The notes under the pieces were generated by a model. The model had not been told where the DNA came from and did no database searches. It was given only the letters and a program-made list of their open reading frames with translations. A DNA stretch of 32,000 nt from Candidatus Jordarchaeales archaeon (GTDB lineage Archaea; Asgardarchaeota; Jordiarchaeia; Jordiarchaeales; Freyrarchaeaceae): the NCBI GenBank assembly GCA_038889235.1, contig JAWAHN010000001.1, positions 180,001 through 212,000 on the forward strand. The letters run 5' to 3'. Each line of letters opens with the position of its first letter. Within the stretch, counting starts at the first letter, position 1. Positions 13,977-30,219 of this stretch are shown here, piece after piece. Position numbers and translations under genes: made by a program.

Positions 13977-15683
13977 TTGTCATCCGAGGTTCTTCGTGAA
14001 AAAGTTTTGGAGGTAATTAACACTGTTGAGAGTCATGGGCTCTTCGTTCACGACGAACTGTTGACTGTTAGATGTGAGGGGGAGCATGGAAACGAGATGT
14101 GGAGCATGCCACTCGTCGTCACGCTAGCTGTCCTAAACGCATTAGTCCCTAGGGGGGCTATGCTGCTTTACGGTGGACACGGTGGAGGTAAGACTACTCT
14201 GGCGAAAGTGCTGGGGCGCATGATGACCGGCGCCCACCTTTCAGAGATAGAGGAGGCTGTGGTGCGTGGGCACCCCCAGCTCACAGAGGAGAAAATGATA
14301 GCCACTCTTAAACCTGGGCGGCTTCTCAGAGATGGCGTGGAGGAGGTTGTATGGCGGAAGTTTGTCACAAGCTTTTGGAAAATAGTGGACGAAATTAACA
14401 GGCTTACACCCTATACTCAAAACATTCTCCTATCTCTCCTCGCTGAAGGCAGAGTGAAGTTTTACGACGCTGTTTACGAGTGCGGCTCCTTCGTCCTCTA
14501 CGCCACAATGAACCCACAGGACCCTGGAACCTTCGAAATTGGGCTTCCGCTGCTGGACAGGTTCGGGATAGCTGTACCCATAACCATGCCCAGCGTTACG
14601 GAGATCCCATTCATCCTCTCGGGCCAAGATGAAAGGCTTTACGGCTACGACCCCTACTACCAAGTCCCCCAAGTGCTAAGCGTGGAGGAGTTGCGCTCAA
14701 TATGGCGGCTTGTCGACGCCACGCCGGTGGATGAGGAGGCGAAGCTCTTCGTGGGCAACCTGATATCAGAATTTTCGGCTTGCGAGAGGGCTTCGAAAGA
14801 AAACGTCACGCTCCTCAGAACGGATAGCGGACTATGCGACGGATGCCACTTCAACGTCGAAAAATCGGTTTGCAACAAGGTTGTGACGCCACTCAGCGTG
14901 AGGGCGGCTAAGGACATTTTAAGGTATTCTAAGGCGTTGTCCTGGCTCCTCGGAGCTGAAAAGGTGACCGTGGATATGGTCGTTGCTATAGCTCCCTATG
15001 CCGTTTGGCATAGGGTTAAGTATCCTGAAAGACTCCTCATGGAACCCCCCTACTACGGGGACCAGCTCAAGTTTACCTTCGACGTTATGAAGCTCGTAAT
15101 GGAGAGGTTTGTAGCGAGGAGGAAAGCTCTAGAAATATTTGAGAAGTTTAAGATGGGAGAGGGGGGTGAGGGGGCGCTGAAAAACCTTGAAGAGTGGGGG
15201 AGGAGCGACCTAGTGGTGAAAACAGAGTTAGTGCCAAAAGCGCGCCACTTCGCCACCAGGGAGTATAGGAGCGTGATGGAGAAGATAAGGAAAGCACTTA
15301 GGGTTGACAACGTAAGAGAGCTCGAGAAGGTAAGGAATGTTATACTCTCAGAGAGAGGGTTGCCGAACAGGTTTGAAATCCTACGCAAGCTCGAAGAGGC
15401 AATTCACGAGAAGACAAAGAAGATCTACATGGTGCCGTTTAGAGAGTGGGGGGCGGTGTACGGAAAGCTTGCTGTAAAGTTCCCAGAGCTACAAGAGCCC
15501 CTTAAGCAAACGTTCAAACCGCCCGTGTCAAAGTGCATTAAACACAGGGAGCTTACCATAATAGTCCACGCAACCGGGGGAAGCGACGAGGACCCGGTGT
15601 TCGTGGAAATTGCAGGGGGTAAAGCGGACGAGGTGGCTAAAATCGTGGAGGAGGTTTGCGGAAGTGACAAGAAAGAGGAATAA
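13977..15683 (+). CDS. MoxR-type AAA+ ATPase with a Cys4 insertion and C-terminal extension (568 aa)
   Basis: Walker A GGHGGGKT, Walker B IVDEINR, ATMNP, LLDRF, SVRA. Contains a C-x17-C-x2-C-x8-C cluster. Confidence 0.88.
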   Translation: MSSEVLREKVLEVINTVESHGLFVHDELLTVRCEGEHGNEMWSMPLVVTLAVLNALVPRGAMLLYGGHGGGKTTLAKVLGRMMTGAHLSEIEEAVVRGHPQLTEEKMIATLKPGRLLRDGVEEVVWRKFVTSFWKIVDEINRLTPYTQNILLSLLAEGRVKFYDAVYECGSFVLYATMNPQDPGTFEIGLPLLDRFGIAVPITMPSVTEIPFILSGQDERLYGYDPYYQVPQVLSVEELRSIWRLVDATPVDEEAKLFVGNLISEFSACERASKENVTLLRTDSGLCDGCHFNVEKSVCNKVVTPLSVRAAKDILRYSKALSWLLGAEKVTVDMVVAIAPYAVWHRVKYPERLLMEPPYYGDQLKFTFDVMKLVMERFVARRKALEIFEKFKMGEGGEGALKNLEEWGRSDLVVKTELVPKARHFATREYRSVMEKIRKALRVDNVRELEKVRNVILSERGLPNRFEILRKLEEAIHEKTKKIYMVPFREWGAVYGKLAVKFPELQEPLKQTFKPPVSKCIKHRELTIIVHATGGSDEDPVFVEIAGGKADEVAKIVEEVCGSDKKEE

Positions 15684-17289
15684 TAAACACATTGCCTCGC
15701 TTGTCAAGGAGGCGGTTTCGCTTGCCCTTAAAGACTTCTACTGCCCCCCGGTCCCAGACCCGGAGGTCAGCGTTGGAAAAGCTAGGAAAACCATGTTCTA
15801 CATTACTGAGGGGAGCTGGAAAGTGCACATAAACGTCAACGAAATCCCACCACTGGAAGAGAGAGAGCTTGTAAAATTCTTCCGGTCCATATGCAGACAC
15901 GAGTTGGGACATTACACTGTATGCCCTTACGATATGACAAATTCCTTGCTTATCCTTAGAAGCGTGATGAAGAATGTCGGGCCAGAACTAGCAGGCTTCG
16001 TCGCCAACTTTTTCTGCGACCTTATCGTCGACCACTACCTCTTTGAAAGATACCGCGAGGAAACACTCTGGGAGAAGAAGGTTACAGCTAACTGGATTGC
16101 CAACTGCTTTGACTATCCAAGCGAGCTGTGGGCTTTACTCATTAAATGCTACGAGAAAATGTGGAACGTGAAAATCCTAGAAGATTTAAGAGTAGCGATG
16201 GTTGTGGATGAAGTTGCAGCAAAGATAGTTAAGGTGATCAAGAGGGGTGGGGTGTTCAACGAGAAGACATGGCCCAGGAAGGCTGGCAAGGTTGCCGAGA
16301 TAATAAGGAACTTCTTGGAATGGGTTCGTAGGGGAGAGGAAGCCAGTTACGACGGATTCACAGTCCCAGAGGATGTCGCGAAGATGATGAGAGGAGACCC
16401 GTTGAAACCACCGCTCGGAAGGAGCGGAGACTATGAGAAAGCAGCGGAGAAGTACATTGAGGAAGGCGGAAGAGTTGAAGAATTTGTCGAAACAATTAGG
16501 GCGGCTGGGCTTAACAAAAACACAAGGGAGATTTTGAGGGCGTGGTATAGGGCTAAGGCGAAATTGAGAATTAAGGTTAAAATCTCCTCGGTGAGGAGGA
16601 GAAAGGAGGATGTGCAAGTTTACCCTGACGTTTGGAGAATTGAAGACCCGTTAGAGGAGCTTGACATACCGCTCTCGCTTCAGTGCTTCCCTAAACTTAT
16701 ACCCGGCCTGACGACTAAGAAGTGGGTCAAGAGTTCAAGTGAAACTGTCAAAGAAAAAGGGGAACCCCCGGACATGTTGATAGTCCTCGACAGTTCCTCC
16801 AGCATGAGCTCTAACGATGGGTTGCCCTTTGACCTAGCTCTCGTAGCAGCCTTCTCGGCTCTTAAGTTTGCGATGAGCAAAAACTGCAGAGTTGCAGCCA
16901 TCAATTTCTCCAATGGAGTGATAGAGTGTTACTGGACCAGGGATAGAGTTAAGGTTGAAGACGTCCTCTTAAGCTACCAGGGGGGCGGCACTGTTCTCCC
17001 CACGAAAAGAATATCGAAACTCGTAGAGGAGAACGGATTCAAAGTCCTGGTGCTAATAATAACTGACACTGGGTTGGCGAACTGGGACGAGGCTGTGAAG
17101 GAGCTTGGAAGGCTCGTAGCCATGGGGCACAGCGTGTGCATGTTCTTTATAGGAGGACGTGAAGGTGAGCTCAACGAGGCGCACAGGAAGTTTCTCTCCA
17201 TGGGTGGGAAGATATATCCCATCCCGGACATTGAGAAGCTACCAGATGTGGTGATAGATGAGGTTAAAGGGCACTACCAGGTAGGGTGA
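15664..17289 (+). CDS. HExxH metallopeptidase-like N-domain plus C-terminal vWA domain protein
   Basis: RHELGHY motif. MIDAS elements DSSSS, GGGT and ITD. GTG 15664 follows a GGAGGAGGT RBS (the ORF track starts at 15610). Confidence 0.85.
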   Translation: MTRKRNNKHIASLVKEAVSLALKDFYCPPVPDPEVSVGKARKTMFYITEGSWKVHINVNEIPPLEERELVKFFRSICRHELGHYTVCPYDMTNSLLILRSVMKNVGPELAGFVANFFCDLIVDHYLFERYREETLWEKKVTANWIANCFDYPSELWALLIKCYEKMWNVKILEDLRVAMVVDEVAAKIVKVIKRGGVFNEKTWPRKAGKVAEIIRNFLEWVRRGEEASYDGFTVPEDVAKMMRGDPLKPPLGRSGDYEKAAEKYIEEGGRVEEFVETIRAAGLNKNTREILRAWYRAKAKLRIKVKISSVRRRKEDVQVYPDVWRIEDPLEELDIPLSLQCFPKLIPGLTTKKWVKSSSETVKEKGEPPDMLIVLDSSSSMSSNDGLPFDLALVAAFSALKFAMSKNCRVAAINFSNGVIECYWTRDRVKVEDVLLSYQGGGTVLPTKRISKLVEENGFKVLVLIITDTGLANWDEAVKELGRLVAMGHSVCMFFIGGREGELNEAHRKFLSMGGKIYPIPDIEKLPDVVIDEVKGHYQVG

Positions 17290-18116
17290 AACGCTTGAGC
17301 ACGTGGAATGACAAGGTTTCCAAGGCGGCTTTCGCGTGCTGTAGGAAAAGCATGGAGACGCTGAGGGTAATCCTTCACGCCTGGCTTAAGAGAGGCACGC
17401 TGAGAGAGAAGGGGGTTCAGCCTATTAGTAGGGTAGTTGTCGTCGCCGAGGAAGGGATGATGGCTGAGGAGGCCGTCAAGGAGCTCCTAAAAGAGACTGG
17501 GGTCAATTTCAGGAAGGTGGAGGGGGAAGGAGGAGTTAGCATGGTGGTCGACGGTGGCGGTGAGGAGTTCACCGTAGAAGTAGTGAGGTGTGAGAGGGAT
17601 CAGAGCGCGCGTGACGGGCTTACTTTGGTCGTTGAAAGACCGGGGGTTGCTGACAGGATGGAGGCTTTGAGGGTTTTGGCGTCAGAGCTTGGCGATCTCG
17701 ACTTGAAGAGTGTAGCGGAGGCTTGTGAGGGCTTCACGACGTCAGACATTGTGAAACTCGTCCAGTTTGCAGCTTCGAGAAGCATAGCTGAGGGGCGGGA
17801 GAAAGTTGAGGGGGGTGACTTTATGGAGGGAGTATCCGCTCTGCGAAGGGAGGCAAGTGTTCTAGGTGAGACGCTTCCCGACGACCTATCAGAGCAGCTC
17901 TACATTATGGCGGTCAGTGAGAGCGGCGAGGTTTTCTCGGAGCTCGTCCACAAAGTCAACTCTGGGGAGAGGCTCGACAGGAGACTTGAGAAGGCGCTTG
18001 CAAGGTACTCCTTCATCTTGTTCGACGAGCCCGAGGAGAGGATAATAAAGCTTGCAAGGGCTAGGGCGAGCTACGAAAGGCTCAGAAAGGTCTTTGAGGG
18101 TGGGCGGCAGAATTGA
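17286..18116 (+). CDS. Degenerate AAA+-like protein: AAA lid present, no Walker A/B
   Basis: DLDLKSVAEACEGFTTSDIVKLVQFAASRSIAEGREKV...DF resembles the small helical lid of classical AAA ATPases (PAN/Cdc48/FtsH type). It has 4-nt overlaps with both neighbours. Confidence 0.65.
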   Translation: MKRLSTWNDKVSKAAFACCRKSMETLRVILHAWLKRGTLREKGVQPISRVVVVAEEGMMAEEAVKELLKETGVNFRKVEGEGGVSMVVDGGGEEFTVEVVRCERDQSARDGLTLVVERPGVADRMEALRVLASELGDLDLKSVAEACEGFTTSDIVKLVQFAASRSIAEGREKVEGGDFMEGVSALRREASVLGETLPDDLSEQLYIMAVSESGEVFSELVHKVNSGERLDRRLEKALARYSFILFDEPEERIIKLARARASYERLRKVFEGGRQN

Positions 18117-21100
18117 ACGGCTTCAAACTCACTTCACTACAACTGAAAAATTTTCTCACATACAGTGAAGAATATCTGAGACTCCCAAAGGAGGGCTTGA
18201 TAGTCATCATAGGCGGAAATGGAACAGGCAAGACCAGCCTATTCAACGCCCTGCGGTTCGTCCTCGGCTCTAATCAGAAAGATCAAAGGTACCGCTCATG
18301 GAGCGACTTCATAAACAACCGTGTGAACGCCGCGTACGGTTGGGTTGAAGCCGTCTTTGAGGGAAACGGAGAGACTATTAAGCTGAGGAGAGAGGTGAGG
18401 CGCGGGGAGGCACCGAGATCATACGTCAACGGGAGAAGGGTAAGCGCGGACGAGTTGAGAAAAGTTGTCCGCGAAAAGCTTGGGATAGACCCAGATAACC
18501 CCCTGGTCTTCGTGCCTCAGGGACGTGTAGATGCGATTAGAGACATGGAGACGGAGAAGCTGAGAGCTTTCATAGAGGAGCTGACTGGTCTCGCAGAGAA
18601 CAGAAGGATTATCGATGAAAAGGAGAGGGAACTTGAAGTGGTACGAAGGGAGGCGGAGAAGCTTAGGGAGGATATTTTAACCTTTCAGGAGAGAGAGGCA
18701 AGGCTGGCTCTGAAGTTTGAAAAGTGGAAGAAGAGGAGGGAGGTGGAGGAGCGGCTTAAGGCGCTTGAGAGCGAGGCCGTATGGAGCAGGATGGCCGAGT
18801 GGGAGGCTAAACTAAAGGAGCTGGCGGAGGCTGAAAGGAGGGCGGCAACATCTGTTGAGGAGAAGTACGCAGCTTTCAAGAAGGTTGCTGGGGAAGTAGA
18901 AGAGCTGGAGAGGGAGTTGGGTGCTAAGAGGGCAAAGGAGGCGGAGATTGATGCTGAGGTTAACAGGCTTAGGGAGGAGAGGATGAACCTTGAAGCTAGA
19001 TTAAGGGGTGTGTTGGGAGGGCGGGATAAGACGCTGGAGAATTTGAGGAGGAAAGAGGAAGAGCTGGAAAGGATTAAGGGAGACGTCGAGGCTCTGAGGA
19101 GGAGAGTGAAGTGGCTTGAGGAAAGAGAGAAAAAACTTGAGGACGACAGGCAGAAAGTGCTGTCAAAAATCGAAGAGTTAAGGAAAGAGCTAGAGAGGAT
19201 TTCCGTTGAGAAGGAGAAGTTTAGGGGGTGGGAGGCTGAGTGGAGAGCTGCTAAGGCCGAGCTGGAGAGGGTGAAGGAGAAAATTGAGGTGCTGAATAAG
19301 GAGAAGGCTCGGGTTGGCTCTGAGCTGGAGAGAGTGGGAAGGAGGATTCTGGAGTGTAACAGGAGGGTGGCGGAGCTCGTTAGCATAGTGGAGAATTACG
19401 ATGAAGATGGGTTGAAGAAGAGGAGAGAGGAGCTGAGGTCGGAAAGGGAGAGGCTTGTAAGGGCGAGTATACGTGTTGAGGATGAAGTCAAGAAGTACGA
19501 TGAGAAGATTAACGCGCTCAGAAAAATGCTTTTAAACGTTGGTAGCAGGGTGCCGGAGCAAGTCGAAATGCTGGAGAGAGATGTGAAAAACAGGAGGATG
19601 GAGGTGGAAGGCCCCCTCCTTAAGCTGATCGAGGTGGATGACAAGTATGCTAAGGCCACCGAGGCGATTTTCGGGAGAGAGCTGCTGGCATTCGTGGCGT
19701 TCGACGAACCCGACTTCCAGGTTTTGAACGAACTTAGAAAAAAGTATAACGCCTGGTGCACCATATACCTTCCGAAAACCCTTGAAGCACCCGCTCTGGG
19801 AAGGATAGAAGACGAAGGGGTTATTGGCTGGCTCGAGGATGTGCTGAAGTTCCCTGAAAGGGTCAGGGTGATTATAAGGGAAATAACCCGAAGGACTTTG
19901 TTAGTTAAAGACTTTAAGAGCGCGCTTGCGCTCAGCAGGAAGTATAAGGGGTTGAGGTTTGTTACAGTTGACGGCGAGGTAGTGGAGGACTTCGAAAACG
20001 TCTTGCGAAGCCCCCACAGGAAAATTAAGGGACTCCTGGACGTTAAGAGAATCACGGAAGAACTGGAGGAGAGCGTTATCGCTAGGGGACGGTTGGAGGA
20101 GGAGCTTAAATCCTTGAAGGAAAAGTTGGACGAGTTGAGGAGGGAGGAGGAGCGGGTTGAAAGAGCGCTCACAGTTATCCCGGAGTGGAGGATGCTTCTA
20201 AGGGAGAAGATGACGCTCGAAGAGGAGGAGAAGAAGCTGAAAGATGAGTTGAGGATGATTGAAGAGAATTTGGCGAGTATTTCAGCGGACAGGGAGAGAG
20301 CGGAAAGGACTCTAAGAAAGGTTGAGGAGAGGAAGCCTAAGGATTACACTGAGCTCGAGAAGGCTGAGATGGAGGCACTAAGAGAGCTCGAAGGGACGAG
20401 GAGAGAGCTTGACAGGTTGGAGGCTGAGCTGAGAAAAGTGATGAAGGAGAGGGAGGGGGCGCTGCTAAATATGAAGATGCTCGAAGCAACCGGCGAGTCT
20501 GTTTCAAAGGAAATCGACCTACTAAGGGAGGAGGTAGTGAGGGGGAGCGAGGAAGCTGAAGAGCTGACTAGAAAGATAGATGAGCTTAAAATAGTGGTTG
20601 AAGAGTGGCTGGCCCGTAAGAGGGACTATGAAAGGTCTATTGAAGTGCTGCTCCAAAAGCTGGGGGAGAGAAGGGAAAGAATGAAAGTGTTGGAGGAGAC
20701 ACTTGGAGAAGGGAGGAAGGAGCTGGAGAGTATTAAGAAAGAGATTTCCGCCGCGAAGGAGAGACTGAAGGAGCTGGAAAGGGAGGTGAGGGAGAGAGGG
20801 TTTGTGAAGCCTGCTAGGGTTAGGTCGCTCCCCGAGATCGAAGTGGAACGCACGCTCCTCGAGGAGGAACTTGCAAGCTTAGCAGACGTGGATGAAGGTG
20901 TCGTGAAAGAGAAGGAGGAGTTGGAGAGGGAGAGAGGATATCTCACTGAGAGATTTGAGAAGGTTAGAGAGGAACTGCAGGGAATTTTGGAGGAGTTAGA
21001 GAGAAGAAAGGAAGAGCACATGGTTAAACTGGTTGAGGCTGTCGATGAAGTTGAGAGGGAGGTTAACGAGCTGCTTGGGAGCGTCAACATGAGGTGCAAG

Positions 21101-21466
21101 TTAAGGGTTGCGGGAGGGTACAGTGAAGCTGGAGTGGAGGTTAAGTTGAGCGTAAAGGGTGGACCTTTAGTCAACGTTACAGCTGCAAGCGGAGGGGAAA
21201 GGTGTTTTTTCGCCATAGCGCTCATGGCGGCACTACAGAAGAAGGCGCGTACACCTCTCGTAGTACTAGACGAGCCGTCGATGCACCTTGACTCTGAAAA
21301 CACCGAGAGGACTGGAAAGATACTCAAGGAGATTTCTTCGGGGAGACAGCTGCTTGTCTTAGTTCCCGACAAGTACTTAGAGTTTACGAAGTATGCTGAC
21401 CAGTGCTACGGGACCGCCACTAGCAGCGGGGTTAGCGTAGTGATACCCGCCCGAATAAAGTGCTGA
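18113..21466 (+). CDS. smc: SMC-family ATPase with Smc5/6-like motifs (1117 aa)
   Basis: Walker A GGNGTGKT, Q-loop FVPQG, two long coiled coils around a central hinge (EGPLLKLIEVD...VTVDG), signature SGGE and Walker B LDEP..HLD. Confidence 0.92.
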   Translation: MNGFKLTSLQLKNFLTYSEEYLRLPKEGLIVIIGGNGTGKTSLFNALRFVLGSNQKDQRYRSWSDFINNRVNAAYGWVEAVFEGNGETIKLRREVRRGEAPRSYVNGRRVSADELRKVVREKLGIDPDNPLVFVPQGRVDAIRDMETEKLRAFIEELTGLAENRRIIDEKERELEVVRREAEKLREDILTFQEREARLALKFEKWKKRREVEERLKALESEAVWSRMAEWEAKLKELAEAERRAATSVEEKYAAFKKVAGEVEELERELGAKRAKEAEIDAEVNRLREERMNLEARLRGVLGGRDKTLENLRRKEEELERIKGDVEALRRRVKWLEEREKKLEDDRQKVLSKIEELRKELERISVEKEKFRGWEAEWRAAKAELERVKEKIEVLNKEKARVGSELERVGRRILECNRRVAELVSIVENYDEDGLKKRREELRSERERLVRASIRVEDEVKKYDEKINALRKMLLNVGSRVPEQVEMLERDVKNRRMEVEGPLLKLIEVDDKYAKATEAIFGRELLAFVAFDEPDFQVLNELRKKYNAWCTIYLPKTLEAPALGRIEDEGVIGWLEDVLKFPERVRVIIREITRRTLLVKDFKSALALSRKYKGLRFVTVDGEVVEDFENVLRSPHRKIKGLLDVKRITEELEESVIARGRLEEELKSLKEKLDELRREEERVERALTVIPEWRMLLREKMTLEEEEKKLKDELRMIEENLASISADRERAERTLRKVEERKPKDYTELEKAEMEALRELEGTRRELDRLEAELRKVMKEREGALLNMKMLEATGESVSKEIDLLREEVVRGSEEAEELTRKIDELKIVVEEWLARKRDYERSIEVLLQKLGERRERMKVLEETLGEGRKELESIKKEISAAKERLKELEREVRERGFVKPARVRSLPEIEVERTLLEEELASLADVDEGVVKEKEELERERGYLTERFEKVREELQGILEELERRKEEHMVKLVEAVDEVEREVNELLGSVNMRCKLRVAGGYSEAGVEVKLSVKGGPLVNVTAASGGERCFFAIALMAALQKKARTPLVVLDEPSMHLDSENTERTGKILKEISSGRQLLVLVPDKYLEFTKYADQCYGTATSSGVSVVIPARIKC

Positions 21467-21467
21467 G

Positions 21468-22040
21468 GTGGGTGGCGTGATAGACGAGGTACTGGCGATG
21501 GTTGAGACTGGAAAGGTTAACCCAGCCGACGTCGACTTGAAAGCCCTCCTAGTGGAAGTTAGGGAGGCTAGGAGTGGAGTCGAGTGGGGGGAGAAGATTT
21601 CAAAGTTAATACGGCTGGCTAGGCTTAAAGTTAGGGCACTGATTGAAAGTGTGATCTTACGGTTTGGGAAGCCGCCAGGTTTCGGCGTCACCTCCCCGCT
21701 GGTAATTCCGTGGATTGGTTTTAGTGAGGCTGAGAGGGCGCTTAGAGAGCTGGTGGAAGCTATGTCTAAGAGAATGGCTGCGAAGGGTGGTGACGAGACC
21801 TCACCAGCACTGCTCGTAGATAAGGAGACCGTTGAACTACATGTGGCTGAGGAGAGAAAGTACAGGGAATACGTGCAGGGTAAAATTAGAGAGCTGGGAG
21901 AGGCGAGATTGGAGGACTTGCTTGAAGGCGACATCTTAGAAAGGGCTTCCATCTTTGTAGAGGTTTTGAGGCTGATAAGCGAGGGGGTTTTAGGGTATGA
22001 CAAGTTGAGCGGGAGGGTTTTTGCGCTTGAACGAGTATGA
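21468..22040 (+). CDS. scpA: ScpA-like kleisin (short, 190 aa)
   Basis: N-terminal helical pattern (VETGKVNPADVDL...LIRLARLKVRAL) and C-terminal wHTH (ERASIFVEVLRLISEG.L). Directly follows smc. Confidence 0.7.
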   Translation: MGGVIDEVLAMVETGKVNPADVDLKALLVEVREARSGVEWGEKISKLIRLARLKVRALIESVILRFGKPPGFGVTSPLVIPWIGFSEAERALRELVEAMSKRMAAKGGDETSPALLVDKETVELHVAEERKYREYVQGKIRELGEARLEDLLEGDILERASIFVEVLRLISEGVLGYDKLSGRVFALERV

Positions 22041-22479
22041 AGTAGTGTTTGCTAGTATGGTTGCCAGTGGTTGGAGAGGGGTTAGCGTTAGGGATGTTGC
22101 AAGGGTCCTAGGAGTGGAGGGGGAGTTGGGAGAGTGGTATGCGATAAGGACTTTAGTGGGTATGGCAAAGATTTTAAGGCCTCTGGGTGTAGTCTTGAAG
22201 TTTAATCCTGTGACTGGGATGTGGGTTGCAACGCAAAGTAGTAAAACAGCTAAGGCTGCTGGGCTCCCGAAAAGGTTGAAGGCAACCCTCGCCGCCGTGC
22301 TTAGAGTTCAAAGCGAGCTTGGAGTTGCATCCATAGAAGAGGTTGTGAAGGTTAGGGGGAAGAGCAGGAGAAGCACTCTGGCAGATCTTAGGGAGCTTGA
22401 AGAAAAAGGGCTTGTTGAGCGTGTAGGAAAAAACGAGTTTAGGGTGTCAGGGGTGCTTGCCCCCTTCCTGGAGGGGTGA
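22021..22479 (+). CDS. scpB: ScpB-like KITE (tandem winged-helix) protein
   Basis: Two wHTH-like halves; the second (LKATLAAV...IEEVVKVRG...LRELEEKGLV) follows the ScpB pattern. Overlaps the kleisin stop. Confidence 0.7.
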   Translation: MRLNEYEVVFASMVASGWRGVSVRDVARVLGVEGELGEWYAIRTLVGMAKILRPLGVVLKFNPVTGMWVATQSSKTAKAAGLPKRLKATLAAVLRVQSELGVASIEEVVKVRGKSRRSTLADLRELEEKGLVERVGKNEFRVSGVLAPFLEG

Positions 22480-22487
22480 GCGCTGGT

Positions 22488-25400
22488 TCATAGCTTCCTA
22501 GCTTTCGCCGTTACATCTTGTAGGACCACGTTAAGCGCCTTTATTAGTTCCATGTTTGTCGTGTATATCCCGACGGGTTGGGGGGCTGCGACCGCCAAAG
22601 CCATCTCTTCGTTGTCCCTGTTTATAATGTAGAGGTTTGTCGGGTAGTGTCTGATTTGTACGTTGGGTGGGAGACCTGCGGGCGGAACACCTTTAACGTC
22701 GGTGACTATTATGGCTCTTTGCCTCGTGAGTTGCTTTACAGTGTCGAGTGGAACGTCGTCTATCGATGGGACCACCATGGTTATGGTGCTCTTGGTGTTT
22801 AGTAGGAGCGCCTTTATGAGTAGGTCCATGTGGGGTTTTCCCGCTATTCTACCGGTGTCCTCGAAGGGTTGAGGCTCTATTTCTTCGGCGAGCCTTGCTA
22901 CCGCGGATATTGTCTCGAGAGAGCGTGAAACGAGGTTCAGCCCTTTGTCGACGAATTCGGCGATCCGTGCTCCGCTTTCCTTAACAAGCGACGAGGACGA
23001 CCTCGCAGAGGAGGACAAGAGCTCATTGACCGAGGACTCAGCAGCTGAAACACTGCCCCGCCACTCTTCTAAGCTCTCTCCGAGTATCTTTGAAATCCTC
23101 TGCTCCGCTTCACTCGCTGTCGCGTCAAGCTCTTTGGAGACTGCTTCAACATGCTGCCTAACGCTTTGAAGGGACTGGAAGAGGCTTGTTTTAAGCGTTG
23201 CATGCCGCTTTTCGAGAGACGCGTGGAGGGAGCGCTGGAAGTCAGCAAGCTTGTCCTTGAGCACTGAGGAGGGCTTCTCCACAATGCTCGAAAGCCCTCT
23301 TACCTTCACTTCTATGACGTCGCGAATTTCCGCCGCGTAGCTGTCAATTGTCGAAAGCAAGTCGTACTTCACCTTTCCAGTGTACGACGCTAGGTCCCTT
23401 GAGACGGTAGCCGCCACCTCTTCGAGCCCCTTTAGAACCTTACCCTTCACCTCTTCCAGTGAGGCTACGCCTTCGCCCAGCAGCCTGCCAGCCTCCTCCC
23501 TGAACTCGGCTACGAATCCCGTCAGCTTTGAAAGGCCTTCCTTCAGCTCATCAGTAAGCCGGCGTTCCAGCTCATCTCTTATCATCGATATCTCCTTCAC
23601 TGAGAAGGAGACTTCTTCCTCAAGTGACGATGCAAACTTGTTAAGCTCCTTGCTTGTTCGCGATGCCACGTCAACTGCTACTTCGCTGAGCTTCGACCTA
23701 ATTTTTTCAGTTTCTTTCTCAGCAGCCTTAGGCAGGTTTGAACCAAGGGATGCAATAGCCTCCTTAAGCTTCGCCACTGATTCTCCAAGTTCGCTGTCAA
23801 CTTTACCTATCAACTGGTTGACGCTTGCCGAGGTTTCTCTGAGGGATGATGTGGCTTCATCAACAGCTTTCTTTAATTCATCTACCTTAGAGCTCATGGA
23901 CTCCTTTACCTTACCCGCCTGCTCCACCCAGGAGTTAGCCAACTCTCTCGTTCTCGCCGACATTGACTGGAACAAGCCCTTAACATTTTCTTCGGCGTTT
24001 GACAGGCTGCGGGCGACGCTCTCCCTAGCACTTGTAAGGGACTTTGCGGCTTTTAACCTTGAGGATTCCAGGTTCTCTTTTATGCTTGAAGCTGTGGACG
24101 AAAGCTTAGACTCTGCCTGCGACGAGGCCTCCTCAAGCATGGAGGACAGCTCTGATAGGAGTCTGTCGGCGGCCGCGCTAGTTTTTGAGCTTAGCGACGC
24201 TGCAAGTTCCGCCACCTTTTTCTCTAGTGATGAAGACAACTCCCCAACTAGTACGTTCACTTGCATTAGCGCCGCTTTCCCCTTTTCTGCGGCTTCATTA
24301 ACCTGTGAGGTAAACGAGTCCACAACGTTCCTAGTCGAAGAGAGAAGACCCCTCAACGTTGAGAGACTTTCGGTGTAGGACTTACCCAGCTGTAACCACG
24401 CCTCCTCGGCTTCAGCTTCCATTGTAGAGGAGTGCGCGGCCACCTCCTTCTCGGCTTCAGCTATCTTGGAACTTATTTTCGTTGATGAACGTGCTGTGGA
24501 TTCCCTTACCGAGCTGGCTTCGGCGGCGGCTTTTTCTAAGAGTGCAAGCATAGCGCTCTTAGCAGAGTTGATTGAGGTTATGGCTTTTTCTGCTTCGTGC
24601 GAGCTTATGGCGTTAAAGCGCTCTTTGAAGTCGTTGAAGAGCGCGTCCACCCGGCTGCGGAGGTCGCCCAGTTGTTTCGAGGTGAGCGTGTTGTACATTG
24701 AGGTGGCATCCCTCAGCTTTGAGGTTAACGCTCTGAATGATTCGTTTAGGGAGCTTGCCGCACCACTGACTAGGGATAGGGCGCCCTCCATGGCGACCCC
24801 GATGTTTCCAGTCATTCTGTTATAGTTGTCAACAATTGTCGACGATAAAGAGTCAACTGTAGCGTTCACCTGCAAGCACGCTTTCTCGAAGCTGGACGAG
24901 GCAGACGAGAGAGTTTCAGCGACTTTCTCAGCGTAGCTCTCAACTTCCCTTCTAATGTTGCTTCCCATGTTCGTAATGGATGCGCGGGCTTTCTCCACAG
25001 TTTTTCCTAACGCTTCCCCAACTTGTGACAATGTCTCAGCTGACAGCGAAGATATTCTCTGCTTTGTGGACTCGTCCTCGCTTTCTATGGATGCAAGCAA
25101 GCTTAACGTTCCCTTCTCAATTCGCTCTCCTAGGTACGTTATCACCTTGTCCACTTCGTCTATAAGCGAGGAGGCTATGGATTCAACTCTTTTCCTCTGG
25201 TCCTCGATAGCGTCTTCAAGTTCAGACCTTAGGCTCAGAACAGCGTCTCTTTGCCCTTTCAACGTGCTTAAGAGGGAGAGGAGTTCATCCTTACCAAGCT
25301 TCTTCTTGCCCTCAGCAACCTCTTCTATCGTTTTTATCACGTCAAGCACCTTGCTGACAACTGCTCTAGCTTTCTCCCCGACCGACGCCAAGCTGCTCCT

Positions 25401-27915: not shown

Positions 27916-30219
27916 TCACCCCTTTGAGAGCTCCTTGCTTACGGCTTCAAGCGCCTTGTAAGCATCCTCTACAACCTTTAGAAGGGAGGAGATCTTCTTC
28001 GAAATGTTGCCTCCAGCTTTCTTCACCTCAGATTCGTTCTTTTCGAGGAACTCCTGGAACTCCTTTAGGGACGACTCCACCTTGGAAAGGGCTTCTCCTA
28101 TCTGGGAGGCTATGTTTGACAGAGTGCTTGAAAGTTCCTCTCTCCCGGACTCTGCAACTTTCTCAATCTGTTTCGATGCACCTTCATTTATGCTTCCAGC
28201 TTGTGCGTCTATTTTGCCGTGGTGCTCTTCGAGGACACGCTTCACCGACGAGGTGAACGATGAATACGCGGAATCCACAGAAGTTATGGCGCTGCTGAAT
28301 GAGGCCTCAACAGAGGCCGCGTTCGACTCAACCTCCTCTCTAAGTCTCGAAATGCCGTCTGATACCTCACCTTTCAGTTTTCCGGAGAGGTTTAGCAGAG
28401 CCTCTTCCACGTCTGATTGCGCTGACTCTACGGTTGAGGCTACCGAGGAGTCTAGTTCCAAGAGAGCGCGGCTGGAGACGCCTTTCAGTCGTTCACCCAA
28501 TTTCGCTATAGCTTCCACTAGAGCTGCACCCTGACCATCAACTTCTCCAATCAGAGTTTTTAGCTGGAACTCCGAAGCTCTCTTGGCTTCCTCGAAGTCA
28601 GCTTGTACAGCCTTTTGCCTCTCCTCTATTCTATACGCTGTTTCCTGTGAGATGTCGTCGACGCGTTTCTTAACGCTCTCAACCAAGCTTTTGAGGCTTG
28701 CCTCAGCACTTTCCTTAAATTTGTCTGTTCTCTTCGACGCTTCTTCCGCCATCTTGAATGCCAAAGAGGAAGTTTCTGTACTGAATGAGCTGCTCAGCTC
28801 TCTACCTGATTTGAGGAGGGCTTCAGCCAATTCGTGCATGCTGTTCTTGAAAGACTCCAGTTCGCTCCTCATCTTTTCTCTGCTCTCTCTCAAGCGCTCT
28901 TCGAACCCCTTGCTCACCTCTAGAACCCTCTCGTAAAATAGGTTGATCGACTCGTCCACTACGTTTGTGAACCCTTCCTCGTATTGTTGGAAGAGCGCTT
29001 GGATGAAGTTGAGTTCACTTGAAAGCGTCTCGTCGATGCTCTTGTTTATGGCTTCCACGGTCAACGTGAACTGGTTCACTAGGCTTGAAAGCTGCCCGCT
29101 CACCTTGTCCTGCAACGATTTCACCACGCCCTCCAGGTGTTCTAGGTAGTCTACTAGCCCGGACCCTAGATCAGACGTGAACGATGAGACCTTGCTGAAG
29201 AAAGCCTCCTTCTCCGCTTCTACAACCTGGTTCAGCTTTTCCTTCGCCTCGGCGCTCGCCGCCTCTATGGAGCTCACGGTTTCCGCAGCCACCGCATCTA
29301 TCTTTTCCTTGAACTCAGCTGTTAAGCGTTCAAGCCGGTTTACTAGGGTGGATGAAACTGTTGAAGCCTTGTCTCTGATTTCAGATGACATCGTTGAGAC
29401 CTGGGACTTGTATGCTTCAACCTCGCCACTAAGAGCCTCAGCTATCCTGCCAGCGCTTTCTTCAACCTCGCTTTTAAGTGACACTGCTGTGCTGTTCACC
29501 AGTTCCTTCGTGTCGTTCAGCGTGGAGACGAGATCTGCTGATGAGGACTCAAGCAGGCTTATATTGGACTTGAACGATGAGTCGATTCTTTCTTTCAACG
29601 AACCAACGTGCCGCTCAATGGAGGACTGTGATGAGGAGACAACCTCATCTATTTCGGACTGCAAGAGTAACGATGTCTCCCTTAACTTGGAGGACGACTC
29701 TTTCTTGAGGCTTTCCATAGTGGAGGTCAGGGTTGAAGAAGCGCTCTTGATGGTTTCCTCCACTATTTCCACGTGGTTTTCAAGCCACCTTCCAGCTGAT
29801 GACGAGACTTCGCGCAAAACATCGGCGACGCGCTCCCCGCTCTCCATAAGGGATGACTTTAAGGTCCCCTCTTCGCCGCCTACGGCTGAAAGAATGCTGT
29901 TCACGACGTCTTCTACGCTTTTCTTGAGCTCCTCAGCTTCCTCCGACACCAAAGCTCCAACTTTTTCAGCCATAGAGTCTATCCAGGACGATATATTGTT
30001 TTGAAGTTCCTGGACGACTGAGGAGAAGCTGCCTTTGAGCTCTTTCCCTAATGTTGCAGTGTCCTTCGAGGCTTTCTTAAGCTGGTTGACCATTGAAGAG
30101 AAGGCTTCAACAACGCTGGAAAACGATGCTTCAACCTCTTTTTGAAGAGAGGCAAGACTGCTCCTAGCCTCACCTATCTCGCCTAGGCGGGCGTCAATCT
30201 TCTGCCTTAATTTTTCCAC
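27916..30219 (-). CDS. All-helical amphipathic repeat protein (767 aa), apolipoprotein-like periodicity
   Basis: Long ORF rich in Ser, Glu and Ala with almost no Pro and an 11/22-residue hydrophobic periodicity. GGAGG RBS; 5-7 nt gaps to both neighbours. Confidence 0.85.
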   Translation of the reverse strand: MEKLRQKIDARLGEIGEARSSLASLQKEVEASFSSVVEAFSSMVNQLKKASKDTATLGKELKGSFSSVVQELQNNISSWIDSMAEKVGALVSEEAEELKKSVEDVVNSILSAVGGEEGTLKSSLMESGERVADVLREVSSSAGRWLENHVEIVEETIKSASSTLTSTMESLKKESSSKLRETSLLLQSEIDEVVSSSQSSIERHVGSLKERIDSSFKSNISLLESSSADLVSTLNDTKELVNSTAVSLKSEVEESAGRIAEALSGEVEAYKSQVSTMSSEIRDKASTVSSTLVNRLERLTAEFKEKIDAVAAETVSSIEAASAEAKEKLNQVVEAEKEAFFSKVSSFTSDLGSGLVDYLEHLEGVVKSLQDKVSGQLSSLVNQFTLTVEAINKSIDETLSSELNFIQALFQQYEEGFTNVVDESINLFYERVLEVSKGFEERLRESREKMRSELESFKNSMHELAEALLKSGRELSSSFSTETSSLAFKMAEEASKRTDKFKESAEASLKSLVESVKKRVDDISQETAYRIEERQKAVQADFEEAKRASEFQLKTLIGEVDGQGAALVEAIAKLGERLKGVSSRALLELDSSVASTVESAQSDVEEALLNLSGKLKGEVSDGISRLREEVESNAASVEASFSSAITSVDSAYSSFTSSVKRVLEEHHGKIDAQAGSINEGASKQIEKVAESGREELSSTLSNIASQIGEALSKVESSLKEFQEFLEKNESEVKKAGGNISKKISSLLKVVEDAYKALEAVSKELSKG

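What the first reader, a model, noticed from the sequence alone, without database searches (positions are those of the whole stretch)
18113..21466. SMC head motifs point to the Smc5/6 lineage rather than canonical archaeal Smc
Seen: KNFLTY and GGNGTGKTS (compare Smc5 ENFLTY/GANGTGKSS; canonical Smc has GKSN); Q-loop VFVPQGRV (Smc5 FLPQD.V); a Pro instead of the switch His (QLLVLVP, as in the ITP/LTP of Smc5 and Smc6; canonical is ITH); and a hinge lacking the GxxxGG motif (VTVDGEVVEDFEN). Known: Smc5/6 is the eukaryotic SMC that retains KITE subunits, and Smc5/6-related archaeal proteins such as coalescin exist. Inference: a complete archaeal Smc5/6-like holo-complex with its own kleisin and KITE, relevant to the origin of eukaryotic Smc5/6.
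Basis: partly seen in the sequence, partly recalled or inferred. Interest (0 to 1): 0.72.

Follow-up and report, generated by a model that had tools for sequence, protein, structure and literature searches.

The report
Second, non-canonical SMC complex of Asgard archaea
This gene encodes the motor subunit of a second chromosome-folding (SMC) complex, with its own kleisin and KITE partners, found across Asgard archaea beside the ordinary Smc-ScpAB; it matches the published 'SMC5/6-related' archaeal SMC class, but my trees cannot prove a specific link to eukaryotic Smc5/6.

Summary
Every quoted motif sits in a 1117-aa full-length SMC at window 18113-21466 (+).

- **Two SMC systems.** The genome is a Jordarchaeales-type Asgard archaeon. 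It also carries a complete canonical smc-scpA-scpB operon elsewhere.
- **Its own partners.** The window SMC is followed by a kleisin-like gene and a tandem-winged-helix KITE-like gene.
- **Distribution.** The family was found only in Asgard archaea (Jord, Frey, Baldr, Thor, Odin, Loki, Hermod, Hod).
- **Conserved core.** The gene order is always AAA+ -> SMC -> kleisin -> KITE.
- **Phylogeny.** In head-domain ML trees the family lies outside the canonical bacterial/archaeal/Smc4 clade. A recent Asgard duplication is rejected (AU p=3e-5).
- **Link to Smc5.** With 13 real eukaryotic Smc5 sequences added, the ML tree puts the family sister to [Smc5 + short archaeal SMC-likes] (UFBoot 96, SH-aLRT 77). 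The alternative (family + canonical) is not rejected (AU p=0.34), and the Rad50 root moves between the N- and C-head partitions.
- **Similarity is mixed.** The N-head is slightly closest to Smc5; the C-head is clearly closest to canonical Smc.
- **Prior work.** The idea is already published (Yoshinaga & Inagaki 2021; van Hooff et al. 2024/25, including Jordarchaeales).
- **Not in those two papers.** They do not mention the conserved AAA+ partner. It is intact in Odin and degenerate here. They also omit the MoxR/VWA-HExxH pair linked to it in four lineages.

The parts
18113..21466 (+). Non-canonical SMC ATPase (1117 aa): N-head, coiled-coil arm, hinge, arm, C-head
   Evidence: Pfam SMC_N 107 bits and SMC_hinge 53 bits. 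TIGR02169 scores 261 bits, under the 729 cut-off. Family monophyletic at 98/99 and outside the canonical clade.
18212..18238 (+). Walker A, GGNGTGKTS (K40 present)
   Evidence: G34, N36, G39 and K40 are invariant in the family.
18263..18292 (+). Family signature LGSNQKDQRY (holds invariant R59; I infer it is the SMC arginine finger)
   Evidence: The pattern [KR]F[AVC]LGSN[QE][RK][DE] retrieved 164 relatives. 79 of the 80 loci listed are Asgard or unnamed archaeal MAGs; one is labelled Nanopelagicaceae. Invariant columns.
18506..18529 (+). Q-loop, VFVPQGRV
   Evidence: Q136 invariant. Aligns to FLPQDKV of human SMC5.
19604..19999 (+). Hinge domain; its last strands (VTVDGEVVEDFEN, nt 19961-19999) lack the glycine motif
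   Evidence: Pfam SMC_hinge at aa 498-607. Canonical consensus is VTLEGDLxEKSGVMTGGS; family consensus is VTLxGxVxxxxxxVxxSxP. Motif definition from PMC5290277.
21185..21292 (+). Signature motif ASGGER, Walker B LVVLDE, D-loop HLD
   Evidence: S1026, G1028, D1053, E1054, L1059 and D1060 are invariant.
21347..21367 (+). H-loop region QLLVLVP, with Pro1085 in place of the switch His
   Evidence: P1085 is invariant in 15/15 members. Smc5 has ITP at the same place.
21468..22040 (+). Kleisin-like subunit (190 aa): N-terminal helices, disordered middle, C-terminal winged helix
   Evidence: AF2 model with pLDDT 63. ESM Atlas features score 0.92, and 36 of 40 hits fall in the set whose clusters carry PF02616 SMC_ScpA. 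Sub-threshold colinear ScpA-C and ScpA-N hits. Found directly after the SMC in nearly all loci long enough to show it.
22021..22479 (+). KITE-like subunit (152 aa; relatives start at MNEY, so the true start is probably the TTG at 22027): tandem winged helix
   Evidence: AF2 model with pLDDT 79 and two WH domains. Foldseek E-values: ScpB 4e-5, MukE 1e-4, Nse1-Nse3-Nse4 entry 5e-4, MAGE 6e-4, JetABC chain 9e-4. Conserved after the kleisin.
17286..18116 (+). Pseudo-AAA+ protein (276 aa): classic-clade AAA fold without Walker A/B, a lid, and a conserved C-terminal helical part
   Evidence: Pfam AAA_lid_3. Atlas structure match to Rpt/PAN/FtsH at TM about 0.6. No GK[ST] in any aligned Jord, Frey, Baldr, Thor, Loki or Hermod member. 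The orthologue is intact (GPPGTGKT, ILFLDEFD) in Odin and in a sister lineage. Lies immediately upstream of the SMC in all lineages.
13977..15683 (+). MoxR-type AAA+ ATPase (568 aa), Walker A GGHGGGKT
   Evidence: Pfam AAA_5 and AAA_lid_2. Linked to the SMC operon in Jord, Frey, Baldr and Thor. Present but unlinked in Loki.
15610..17289 (+). VWA partner (559 aa) with a conserved HExxH motif in the N-terminal part and a MIDAS DxSxS in the C-terminal VWA
   Evidence: Weak Pfam VWA_2. HE(L/V/I)xH and DSS(G/S)S are conserved in 8/8 orthologues.

Best explanation
Window 18113-21466 encodes the ATPase arm of a second, non-canonical SMC-kleisin-KITE complex. It coexists with the canonical Smc-ScpAB of this Jordarchaeales-type Asgard archaeon.

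**Shown**
- It is a complete SMC: both head halves, arms and a hinge.
- All ATP-binding and hydrolysis motifs are intact except the switch His. That position is an invariant Pro, as in Smc5.
- The hinge lacks the glycine dimerisation motif.
- The next two genes have kleisin and KITE architecture.
- The four-gene core AAA+ -> SMC -> kleisin -> KITE is conserved across Asgard lineages.

**Inferred**
- Two SMC chains homodimerise at the hinge.
- The 190-aa kleisin bridges the neck of one head and the cap of the other and carries a KITE dimer.
- The ATP-driven ring entraps or extrudes DNA to organise or repair the chromosome.

**Evolution**
The family is an ancient lineage distinct from the canonical Smc/SMC1-4 clade. 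It most likely corresponds to the published 'SMC5/6-related archaeal SMC' class. Whether it shares an exclusive ancestor with eukaryotic Smc5/6 stays unresolved in my analyses.

**Accessory genes (inference only)**
The upstream AAA+ protein, degenerate here, is probably an accessory or loader-type subunit. The MoxR/VWA-HExxH pair is probably a remodelling module.
For: - **Architecture and motifs:**
- **Second system beside a canonical one:** canonical Smc scores 904.6 bits, with ScpA (PF02616) and ScpB (PF04079, 120 bits), at C1:621.5-626.2 kb.
- **Kleisin:**
- **KITE:**
- **Conserved synteny in 80 GTDB loci:**
- **Distribution in sampled genomes:** Thor family 16/17 (at E<=1e-20, a threshold canonical Smc also passes) and Loki order 61/64.
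- **Sole SMC in one lineage:** in Baldrarchaeum it is the only full-length SMC. No canonical Smc or ScpB passes the cut-off in a 96%-complete genome.
- **Outside the canonical clade:** family 98/99; canonical clade 98/92.
- **Not a recent duplicate:** AU rejects family + Asgard canonical Smc (delta lnL 60.8, p=3.3e-5).
- **With 13 eukaryotic Smc5 and one Smc4** (verified): the ML tree gives [family] + [Smc5 + short SMC-likes] against [canonical + Smc4], 96/77.
- **N-head profile:** the top PDB hit is Smc5 at 91 bits. Thirteen Smc5 representatives rank among the best 150 of 1.84 billion proteins.
- **Absolute scores:** the family profile scores Smc5 and Smc6 higher (108-160 bits) than the canonical archaeal profile does (100-104 bits).
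- **Literature:** Asgard genomes, including Jordarchaeales and Baldrarchaeum, carry 'SMC5/6-related' SMC, kleisin and kite sets in the order SMC, kleisin, kite.
Against: - **Topology test:** AU cannot reject family + canonical clade (p=0.336).
- **Unstable root:** Rad50 roots inside DPANN canonical Smc with the N-head alone, and inside the family with the C-head alone.
- **C-head similarity:** canonical Smc 115 bits and Smc2-4 80-86 bits, against Smc5 58-65 and Smc6 52-62.
- **N-head margin is small:** Smc5 91 bits against Pfu Smc 84. Canonical N-heads reach 108 bits with the same HMM.
- **Partner subunits:** the kleisin looks ScpA-like and gives no Nse4 hit. The KITE shows no Nse1/3 or MAGE sequence signal.
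- **Missing taxa:** no Smc6, Smc1-3, MukB or JetC in the trees, and a single outgroup.
- **No experiment:** no biochemical or expression data were examined.
Confidence: 0.8

Rival explanations
1. The family is an ancient third SMC lineage whose true sister is the canonical Smc/SMC1-4 clade, not Smc5/6. Its Smc5-like motifs (KNFLTY-type N-terminus, H-loop Pro, glycine-less hinge) would then be convergent or retained ancestral states.
For: - AU does not reject family + canonical (p=0.336).
- The C-head profile is far closer to canonical Smc.
- The kleisin resembles ScpA.
- Smc5 groups more tightly (100/97) with short hinge-less SMC-likes than with this family.
Against: - The concatenated ML tree favours family + [Smc5 + short SMC-likes] at 96/77.
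- The N-head-only tree keeps that split at SH-aLRT 89.
- The N-head profile ranks Smc5 first in the PDB.
- Published trees place the Asgard second SMCs with SMC5/6.
Confidence: 0.3
2. It is a recent, fast-evolving Asgard-specific duplicate of the canonical Smc, pushed to the base of the tree by long-branch attraction.
For: - The family was found only in Asgard archaea.
- The family stem is long, 0.83.
- Its C-head resembles canonical Smc.
Against: - AU rejects family + Asgard canonical Smc (delta lnL 60.8, p=3.3e-5).
- It has its own diverged kleisin and KITE with no Pfam ScpA or ScpB signal.
- A sister lineage (P0285, P0346) lies outside the core family.
Confidence: 0.05
3. It is a mobile or defence-type SMC system (Wadjet-, Lamassu- or Mks-like), with the MoxR/VWA genes acting as conflict-system components.
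For: - MoxR-VWA modules occur in conflict systems (background knowledge).
- Weak partial PADLOC matches: mad3 102 bits, LmuB 97 bits, JetC about 34 bits.
Against: - PADLOC scores are far below the SMC model score of 261 bits, and the MoxR, VWA, pseudo-AAA and kleisin proteins hit nothing there.
- The family tree groups members by lineage label (Jord+Frey+Baldr; Thor; a Loki+Hermod+Hod group).
- It is near-universal in the sampled Thor family and Loki order.
- The flanking genes are conserved housekeeping genes in Thor.
- It is the sole SMC in Baldrarchaeum.
- No nuclease or toprim partner is present.
Confidence: 0.03

Closest known systems
'SMC5/6-related' archaeal SMC complexes (Yoshinaga & Inagaki 2021, PMC8665677; van Hooff, Raas, Tromer & Eme, bioRxiv 10.1101/2024.01.07.573240)
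   Same: - A second SMC beside the canonical one in TACK and Asgard genomes.
- Operon order SMC, kleisin, kite, as in P. syntrophicum genes 495-497.
- Their table lists Jordarchaeales and Baldrarchaeum yapensis with such sets.
- Baldrarchaeum has no canonical Smc or ScpB in either their table or my search. Its member of this family is therefore, by inference, one of their 'SMC5/6-related' SMCs.
   Different: - Neither paper mentions an AAA+ or MoxR partner (0 occurrences).
- They class the partner subunits as Nse4-related and Nse1/3-related. I could not reproduce that with Pfam, PDB profiles, Foldseek or ESM features.
- My AU test leaves the Smc5/6 link open.
Eukaryotic Smc5 (Smc5/6 complex)
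   Same: - N-head motifs (xNFLTY, GxNGxGK(S/T)S, F(L/V)PQ).
- Pro in place of the switch His.
- A hinge without the glycine motif.
- A KITE-type rather than a HAWK-type partner.
- ML sister-group position.
   Different: - One SMC gene, so presumably a homodimer rather than a Smc5/Smc6 heterodimer.
- The Walker B/D-loop reads LDEPSMHLD, not VDEINQGMD.
- The C-head scores only 58-65 bits to Smc5, against 115 to canonical Smc.
- No Nse2, Nse5 or Nse6 counterpart was identified in the operon.
- The KITE is 152 aa with no RING or MAGE sequence signal.
Canonical prokaryotic Smc-ScpAB (TIGR02169; PF02616; PF04079)
   Same: - Same overall architecture: a roughly 1100-1200 aa SMC, a small kleisin with a C-terminal WHD, and a tandem-WH KITE.
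- The C-head and the kleisin are most similar to this system.
   Different: - Scores 261 bits against a 729-bit cut-off.
- GKTS, not GKSN.
- Pro, not His, in the H-loop.
- No hinge GG motif.
- Kleisin and KITE are not recognised by the ScpA and ScpB models.
- Outside the canonical clade in the trees.
- A canonical operon coexists in the same genome.
Short (about 560-840 aa) archaeal SMC-like proteins (e.g. P0075, P0284; below every NCBIfam cut-off, including ASRP)
   Same: - They group with the family and Smc5 on the non-canonical side of the tree.
- They share the H-loop Pro.
   Different: - They lack a hinge and long arms.
- Their C-head is clearly Smc5/6-like (Smc5 72 bits > Pfu Smc 60).
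- They are sister to Smc5 at 100/97.
- None is present in this genome.

Membership tests
SMC protein (structural maintenance of chromosomes) sensu lato | Split ABC-type head (Walker A, Q-loop, signature, Walker B, D-loop) separated by long coiled coils and a hinge | tested here: met
   Pfam SMC_N spans aa 6-1103 and SMC_hinge spans aa 498-607. Motifs confirmed.
Canonical prokaryotic Smc (TIGR02169/TIGR02168 equivalogs) | Score above the curated cut-off (729 or 567 bits) | tested here: not met
   261 and 241 bits. The genome's other SMC scores 904.6 bits.
Canonical prokaryotic Smc (TIGR02169/TIGR02168 equivalogs) | Branches within the bacterial + archaeal Smc clade | tested here: not met
   The family lies outside the clade supported at 98/92. 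AU rejects union with Asgard canonical Smc, p=3.3e-5.
Canonical prokaryotic Smc (TIGR02169/TIGR02168 equivalogs) | Hinge glycine motif GX5GGX3GG and a switch His in the H-loop | tested here: not met
   VTVDGEVVEDFENVLRSP carries no GG. Pro1085 is invariant.
Smc5/6 lineage (eukaryotic Smc5/Smc6 plus 'SMC5/6-related' archaeal SMC) | Exclusive common ancestry with Smc5/6 in a rooted phylogeny | tested here: inconclusive
   The ML tree gives sister to [Smc5 + short SMC-likes] at 96/77. AU p=0.336 for the alternative. The root is unstable between partitions. Smc6 was not sampled.
Smc5/6 lineage (eukaryotic Smc5/Smc6 plus 'SMC5/6-related' archaeal SMC) | Smc5-type sequence features: Pro at the H-loop, hinge without the glycine motif, Smc5-like N-head | tested here: met
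   The C-head Walker B/D-loop, however, is not of the DEINQGMD type.
Smc5/6 lineage (eukaryotic Smc5/Smc6 plus 'SMC5/6-related' archaeal SMC) | Partner kleisin related to Nse4, and KITE related to Nse1/Nse3 (MAGE) | tested here: inconclusive
   No Pfam Nse4_C or MAGE signal in the genome. The MAGE control rang in no genome, so that search is uninformative. The kleisin's weak hits are to ScpA. KITE Foldseek E-values: ScpB 4e-5, Nse1/3 entry 5e-4.
Smc5/6 lineage (eukaryotic Smc5/Smc6 plus 'SMC5/6-related' archaeal SMC) | Smc5/Smc6 heterodimer with Nse2, Nse5 and Nse6 | tested here: not met
   There is one SMC gene in the operon. The genome holds only two full-length SMCs, one of them canonical. 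No further SMC5/6-type subunits were identified in the operon.
Kleisin | N-terminal helical domain, flexible linker, C-terminal winged helix; encoded next to an SMC gene | tested here: met
   AF2 secondary structure. ESM features point to ScpA-family clusters at 0.92. Colinear sub-threshold ScpA-N and ScpA-C hits. Synteny. Physical binding to the SMC head was not tested.
KITE | Tandem winged-helix protein encoded with the kleisin | tested here: met
   AF2 model with two WH domains. The top Foldseek hits include ScpB, MukE, an Nse1-Nse3-Nse4 entry, MAGE and JetABC chains. Synteny.
MukBEF / Wadjet (JetABCD) / Lamassu | MukB/JetC- or LmuB-type ATPase with MukF/JetA, MukE/JetB and a nuclease partner | tested here: not met
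   JetC about 30-34 bits; LmuB 97 bits, partial. The accessory proteins have no PADLOC hits. These ATPases were not placed in the trees.

The most novel reading that the evidence does not exclude
A classic-clade AAA+ ATPase is an ancestral fourth component of this non-canonical SMC complex. It is intact in Odinarchaeota and in a sister lineage. It has decayed to a pseudo-ATPase in Jord, Frey, Baldr, Thor and Loki. It may act as a loader, unloader or assembly factor. In Jord, Frey, Baldr and Thor, a MoxR ATPase with a VWA-MIDAS partner carrying a conserved HExxH motif may additionally remodel the complex. It might even cleave it proteolytically, for example at the kleisin, in a separase-like manner. 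That would be a mode of SMC regulation unknown in prokaryotes, found in the closest relatives of eukaryotes.
Probability: 0.3. Interest if true: 0.75.

Novelty: new member of a known kind. Interest (0 to 1): 0.42.

Why it matters
How eukaryotes acquired several SMC complexes is an open question. The published view is that Asgard archaea already had two, one of them ancestral to Smc5/6. This locus is a clean, complete example from a near-complete genome, and it broadly agrees with that picture.

My tests add three cautions:
- The link to Smc5/6 rests on the root position and is not statistically secure.
- The two head halves give conflicting similarity signals.
- Short hinge-less archaeal SMC-likes sit closer to Smc5 than this family does.

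The practically new lead is the invariable AAA+ gene upstream of the SMC, active in Odin and degenerate elsewhere, together with the MoxR/VWA-HExxH pair. If these proteins act on the complex, they give a handle on how an archaeal SMC5/6-like ring is loaded or released.

Tried and rejected
- **Complex prediction.** I ran complex prediction on SMC N-head + C-head + kleisin, with the pseudo-AAA+ as partner. It gave no answer (score 0.00). This is not evidence either way.
- **Foldseek on the kleisin model.** No match at E<=0.001. Only weak Brn1 and Scc1-C winged-helix rows appeared.
- **Pfam on kleisin and KITE families at E<=5.** No ScpA, ScpB, Nse4, Nse1 or MAGE hits.
- **Genome searches with PF01454 (MAGE) and PF08743 (Nse4_C).** Nothing useful. 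The MAGE control rang in no genome, so that search is uninformative.
- **KITE profile against PDB sequences.** Only generic wHTH regulators.
- **A wrong lead.** I first took the Caldarchaeales/Nitrososphaerota SMCs (P0111, P0139) for the TACK 'SMC5/6-related' class. They are followed by ScpA and ScpB and fall in the canonical clade, so I rejected that.
- **Locating P. syntrophicum MK-D1.** I tried to find it among the sampled genomes to match published gene numbers 495-497. It was not in the samples.
- **Defence-system reading.** Rejected on the PADLOC result and the distribution.
- **Missing sequences.** Eukaryotic Smc6 and Smc1-3 could not be obtained, so they are absent from the trees.

Full report
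**1. What is at the coordinates**

Window 18113-21466 (+) is one open frame of 1117 aa. Pfam finds SMC_N across aa 6-1103 and SMC_hinge at aa 498-607.

The catalytic set is intact:
- Walker A GGNGTGKTS, with K40
- R59, invariant; I infer it is the SMC arginine finger
- Q-loop Q136
- signature SGGER
- Walker B LVVLDE
- D-loop HLD

The only exception is Pro1085 at the switch-His position. The last hinge strands (VTVDGEVVEDFENVLRSP) lack the glycine motif. The canonical paralogue in the same genome keeps it (VTLEGDLxEKSGVMTGGS in the canonical consensus).

The Smc5 comparison strings were verified from tool output. Human SMC5 shows ENFLTY, GANGTGKSS and FLPQDKV. Human and yeast Smc5 show QYF(F/L)ITPKLL. 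PMC5290277 states that the hinge glycine motif is absent in Smc5 and only partial in Smc6.

**2. Genomic setting**

The nearest database relatives are labelled Jordarchaeales (57% identity), Freyarchaeota (44%) and Thorarchaeota (25-29%). The host is therefore an Asgard archaeon.

The genome is 2.14 Mb and 95% complete. It also holds a canonical Smc (904.6 bits on TIGR02169). That Smc is followed by ScpA (PF02616) and ScpB (PF04079, 120 bits) at C1:621.5-626.2 kb. A Rad50 gene follows a 385-aa ORF that is probably Mre11 (not checked). The window SMC reaches only 261 bits against a 729-bit cut-off. It is therefore a second, divergent SMC.

The window genes form a tight operon with overlapping or abutting stops and starts:

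| Window coordinates | Product |
|---|---|
| 13977-15683 | MoxR-type AAA+ |
| 15610-17289 | VWA protein |
| 17286-18116 | AAA-lid protein |
| 18113-21466 | SMC |
| 21468-22040 | 190-aa protein |
| 22021-22479 | 152-aa protein |

**3. The two downstream genes**

The 190-aa protein models as three N-terminal helices, a disordered middle and a C-terminal winged helix. ESM Atlas features place it at 0.92 with clusters that carry SMC_ScpA (36 of 40 hits in that family set). A 16-sequence profile gives sub-threshold but colinear hits to ScpA C-terminal WHD chains and a ScpA N-domain chain, and none to Nse4.

The 152-aa protein models as two winged helices (pLDDT 79). Its top Foldseek hits include the known KITEs:

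| Foldseek hit | E-value |
|---|---|
| ScpB | 4e-5 |
| MukE | 1e-4 |
| Nse1-Nse3-Nse4 entry | 5e-4 |
| MAGE | 6e-4 |
| JetABC chain | 9e-4 |

Other tandem-WH proteins, such as ESCRT-II and SelB, appear among them. Sequence profiles find only generic wHTH proteins. So kleisin and KITE architecture is supported. An Nse4 or Nse1/3 sub-affiliation is not.

**4. Family and synteny**

A scan of GTDB species representatives with the family motif [KR]F[AVC]LGSN[QE][RK][DE] found 164 relatives. The 80 best loci listed are from these groups:
- Jordarchaeales
- Baldrarchaeum yapensis
- Thorarchaeota
- Promethearchaeia (Loki)
- Hermodarchaeota
- Hodarchaeota
- unnamed archaeal MAGs

One contig is labelled as a Nanopelagicaceae bacterium MAG, probably mis-binned. 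An Odinarchaeota member was found later.

In sampled genomes the family matched in 16/17 of the Thor family at E<=1e-20, a threshold that canonical Smc also passes. It matched in 61/64 of the Loki order. It was not found in the f2 family of the window's own order.

HMM searches of the flanks of the 80 loci show the core AAA-like -> SMC -> kleisin -> KITE in every lineage. The MoxR + VWA pair is adjacent only in Jord, Frey, Baldr and Thor. It is co-directional in the first three and divergent in Thor. Loki genomes carry the MoxR + VWA pair (MoxR 45-47% identical; VWA partner detected by HMM) elsewhere.

In Baldrarchaeum (96% complete) this family is the only full-length SMC. No canonical Smc or ScpB passes its cut-off there.

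**5. The AAA+ partner**

Here the protein has a recognisable lid and an AAA-like fold (Atlas TM about 0.6 to Rpt/PAN/FtsH). It has no Walker A lysine or Walker B. The same holds in the Thor, Loki, Hermod and Baldr members aligned. The best-conserved part is the last 85 or so residues.

In Odinarchaeota (L170), and in the sister lineage of the family (L169), the orthologous upstream gene is an intact classic AAA+. It has GPPGTGKT, (I/V)(L/F)FLDEFD, CATN and RRFD. The partnership is therefore old, and the ATPase decayed in most lineages.

The VWA protein keeps an HExxH motif and a MIDAS DSS(G/S)S in 8/8 orthologues. MoxR keeps GGHGGGKT. Neither key paper mentions AAA+ or MoxR (0 occurrences).

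**6. Similarity to solved SMCs**

Bit scores of family and canonical profiles against PDB chains:

| Profile | Smc1-4 | Smc5 | Smc6 | Canonical Smc / other |
|---|---|---|---|---|
| Family, full length | 119-195 | 132-160 | 108-124 | – |
| Canonical archaeal, full length | 427-507 | 101-104 | about 100 | – |
| Family, N-head | Smc3 83 | 91 (human), 84.5 (yeast) | 73.5 | Pfu Smc 84; Rad50 81 |
| Family, C-head | Smc4 86, Smc2 82, Smc3 80, Smc1 74 | 58-65 | 52-62 | Pfu Smc 115 |

The family is thus much further from Smc1-4 than canonical Smc is, and somewhat nearer to Smc5/6. The two head halves disagree with each other.

A search of 1.84 billion representatives with the N-head profile returned three tiers. 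About 41 family representatives came first (>=165 bits). Many 550-700-aa SMC-likes followed (roughly 108-144 bits). Thirteen proteins with Smc5 motifs scored 108-116 bits. Only a few canonical-type SMCs appeared, although canonical N-heads reach 108 bits with the same HMM.

Two of the thirteen were checked by name: P0356 is Tieghemostelium Smc5 (503 bits to human SMC5) and P0387 is Sycon Smc5. P0316 is a microsporidian SMC4.

**7. Trees**

*Prokaryote-only head tree.* It has 71 rows and 341 columns, built with LG+C20+F+G4 PMSF and a careful search. The family is monophyletic (98/99) on a 0.83 stem. It lies outside the bacterial + archaeal canonical clade (98/92). AU rejects family + Asgard canonical Smc (delta lnL 60.8, p=3.3e-5).

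*Tree with eukaryotes.* It has 78 rows and 337 columns, from a careful search. Three deep groups appear:
- canonical + Smc4
- Smc5 + short SMC-likes (97/95), with Smc5 sister to a 560-680-aa subgroup at 100/97
- family + P0285/P0346 (98/95)

Rad50 joins between the first group and the other two (96/77). That makes the family sister to [Smc5 + short SMC-likes].

Three results weaken this. Holding family + canonical together costs only 3.6 lnL (AU p=0.336). The N-head alone keeps the split (SH-aLRT 89) but roots inside DPANN canonical Smc. The C-head alone keeps the three groups but puts Rad50 inside the family.

Two conclusions follow. The family is robustly non-canonical. Its exclusive kinship with Smc5/6 is the best point estimate but is unproven.

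**8. Relation to the literature**

Yoshinaga & Inagaki (PMC8665677) defined 'SMC5/6-related aSMC'. Van Hooff et al. (bioRxiv 10.1101/2024.01.07.573240) reported complete second operons in TACK and Asgard archaea, and P. syntrophicum genes 495-497 lie in the order SMC, kleisin, kite. The kleisins are classed as Nse4-related and the kites as Nse1/3-related.

Their Table S3 lists Jordarchaeales (SMC-kleisin and kleisin-kite neighbours). It lists Baldrarchaeum yapensis with no canonical set and two SMC5/6-related SMCs. The Baldrarchaeum member of this family is the only full-length SMC I find in that genome. By inference, the family is therefore part of their SMC5/6-related class.

This locus is another member.

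**9. Mechanism (inferred)**

- The SMC homodimerises through a glycine-less hinge.
- ATP-engaged heads are bridged by the kleisin, which carries a KITE dimer.
- The ring entraps or extrudes DNA.
- The AAA+ (here pseudo-AAA+) protein is likely an accessory or loader-type subunit. The MoxR/VWA-HExxH pair is likely a remodelling module.
- The only binding test attempted gave no verdict (see Tried and rejected).

**10. Verdict**

I rate novelty as a new member of a known kind. The AAA+ and MoxR/VWA association is an unreported lead.

Noticed in passing
window 17286-18116; L170:4862-5977; L169:1485-2615: The gene just upstream of the SMC is a classic-clade AAA+. It is intact in Odinarchaeota and in a sister lineage (GPPGTGKT, xxFLDEFD). 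It has lost Walker A/B in Jord, Frey, Baldr, Thor, Loki and Hermod. Its C-terminal 85 or so residues are the best-conserved part. It is not mentioned in the two key SMC-evolution papers.
   Followed up: partly
window 13977-17289: A MoxR ATPase (GGHGGGKT, conserved CxxC) sits with a VWA partner carrying a conserved HExxH and a MIDAS DSSGS. The pair is adjacent to the SMC operon in Jord, Frey, Baldr and Thor, in two different orientations. It is present but unlinked in Loki.
   Followed up: partly
P0075, P0284, P0280 and L062:470-2977 (other genomes): Short (560-840 aa) hinge-less archaeal SMC-like proteins fall below every NCBIfam cut-off. Their C-head is clearly Smc5/6-like (Smc5 72 bits > Pfu Smc 60; shared QSGGER...PFR.VDE...MDP...QY..ITP). 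A 560-680-aa subgroup is sister to eukaryotic Smc5 (100/97) in my tree. None is present in this genome.
   Followed up: partly
G007 (Baldrarchaeum-type genome, 96% complete): No canonical Smc or ScpB passes its cut-off. The non-canonical family appears to be the only full-length SMC there, so it can serve as the sole SMC complex.
   Followed up: partly
L061 and L067 (Loki genomes G077 and G040): SMC proteins of about 1480 aa carry canonical-type motifs (GKSN, ISHRE). They fall among the Asgard canonical Smc in the tree, with low support for their exact position, so they look like a lengthened canonical-type form or paralogue.
   Followed up: no
window 22488-27908 (-) and 27916-30219 (-): A 1806-aa coiled-coil protein with an N-terminal TrmB-type wHTH, plus a 767-aa partner, converges tail-to-tail on the SMC operon. 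The pair is conserved in the same position in Jord and Frey relatives (L009-L011).
   Followed up: no
L142 (DATKTW010000069.1): A contig deposited as a 'Candidatus Nanopelagicaceae bacterium' MAG carries the full Loki-type AAA-SMC-kleisin-KITE cluster. It is probably a mis-binned Asgard contig.
   Followed up: no
window 22021-22040: The KITE ORF probably starts at the second TTG (22027, MNEY...), as in all relatives, rather than at 22021.
   Followed up: partly
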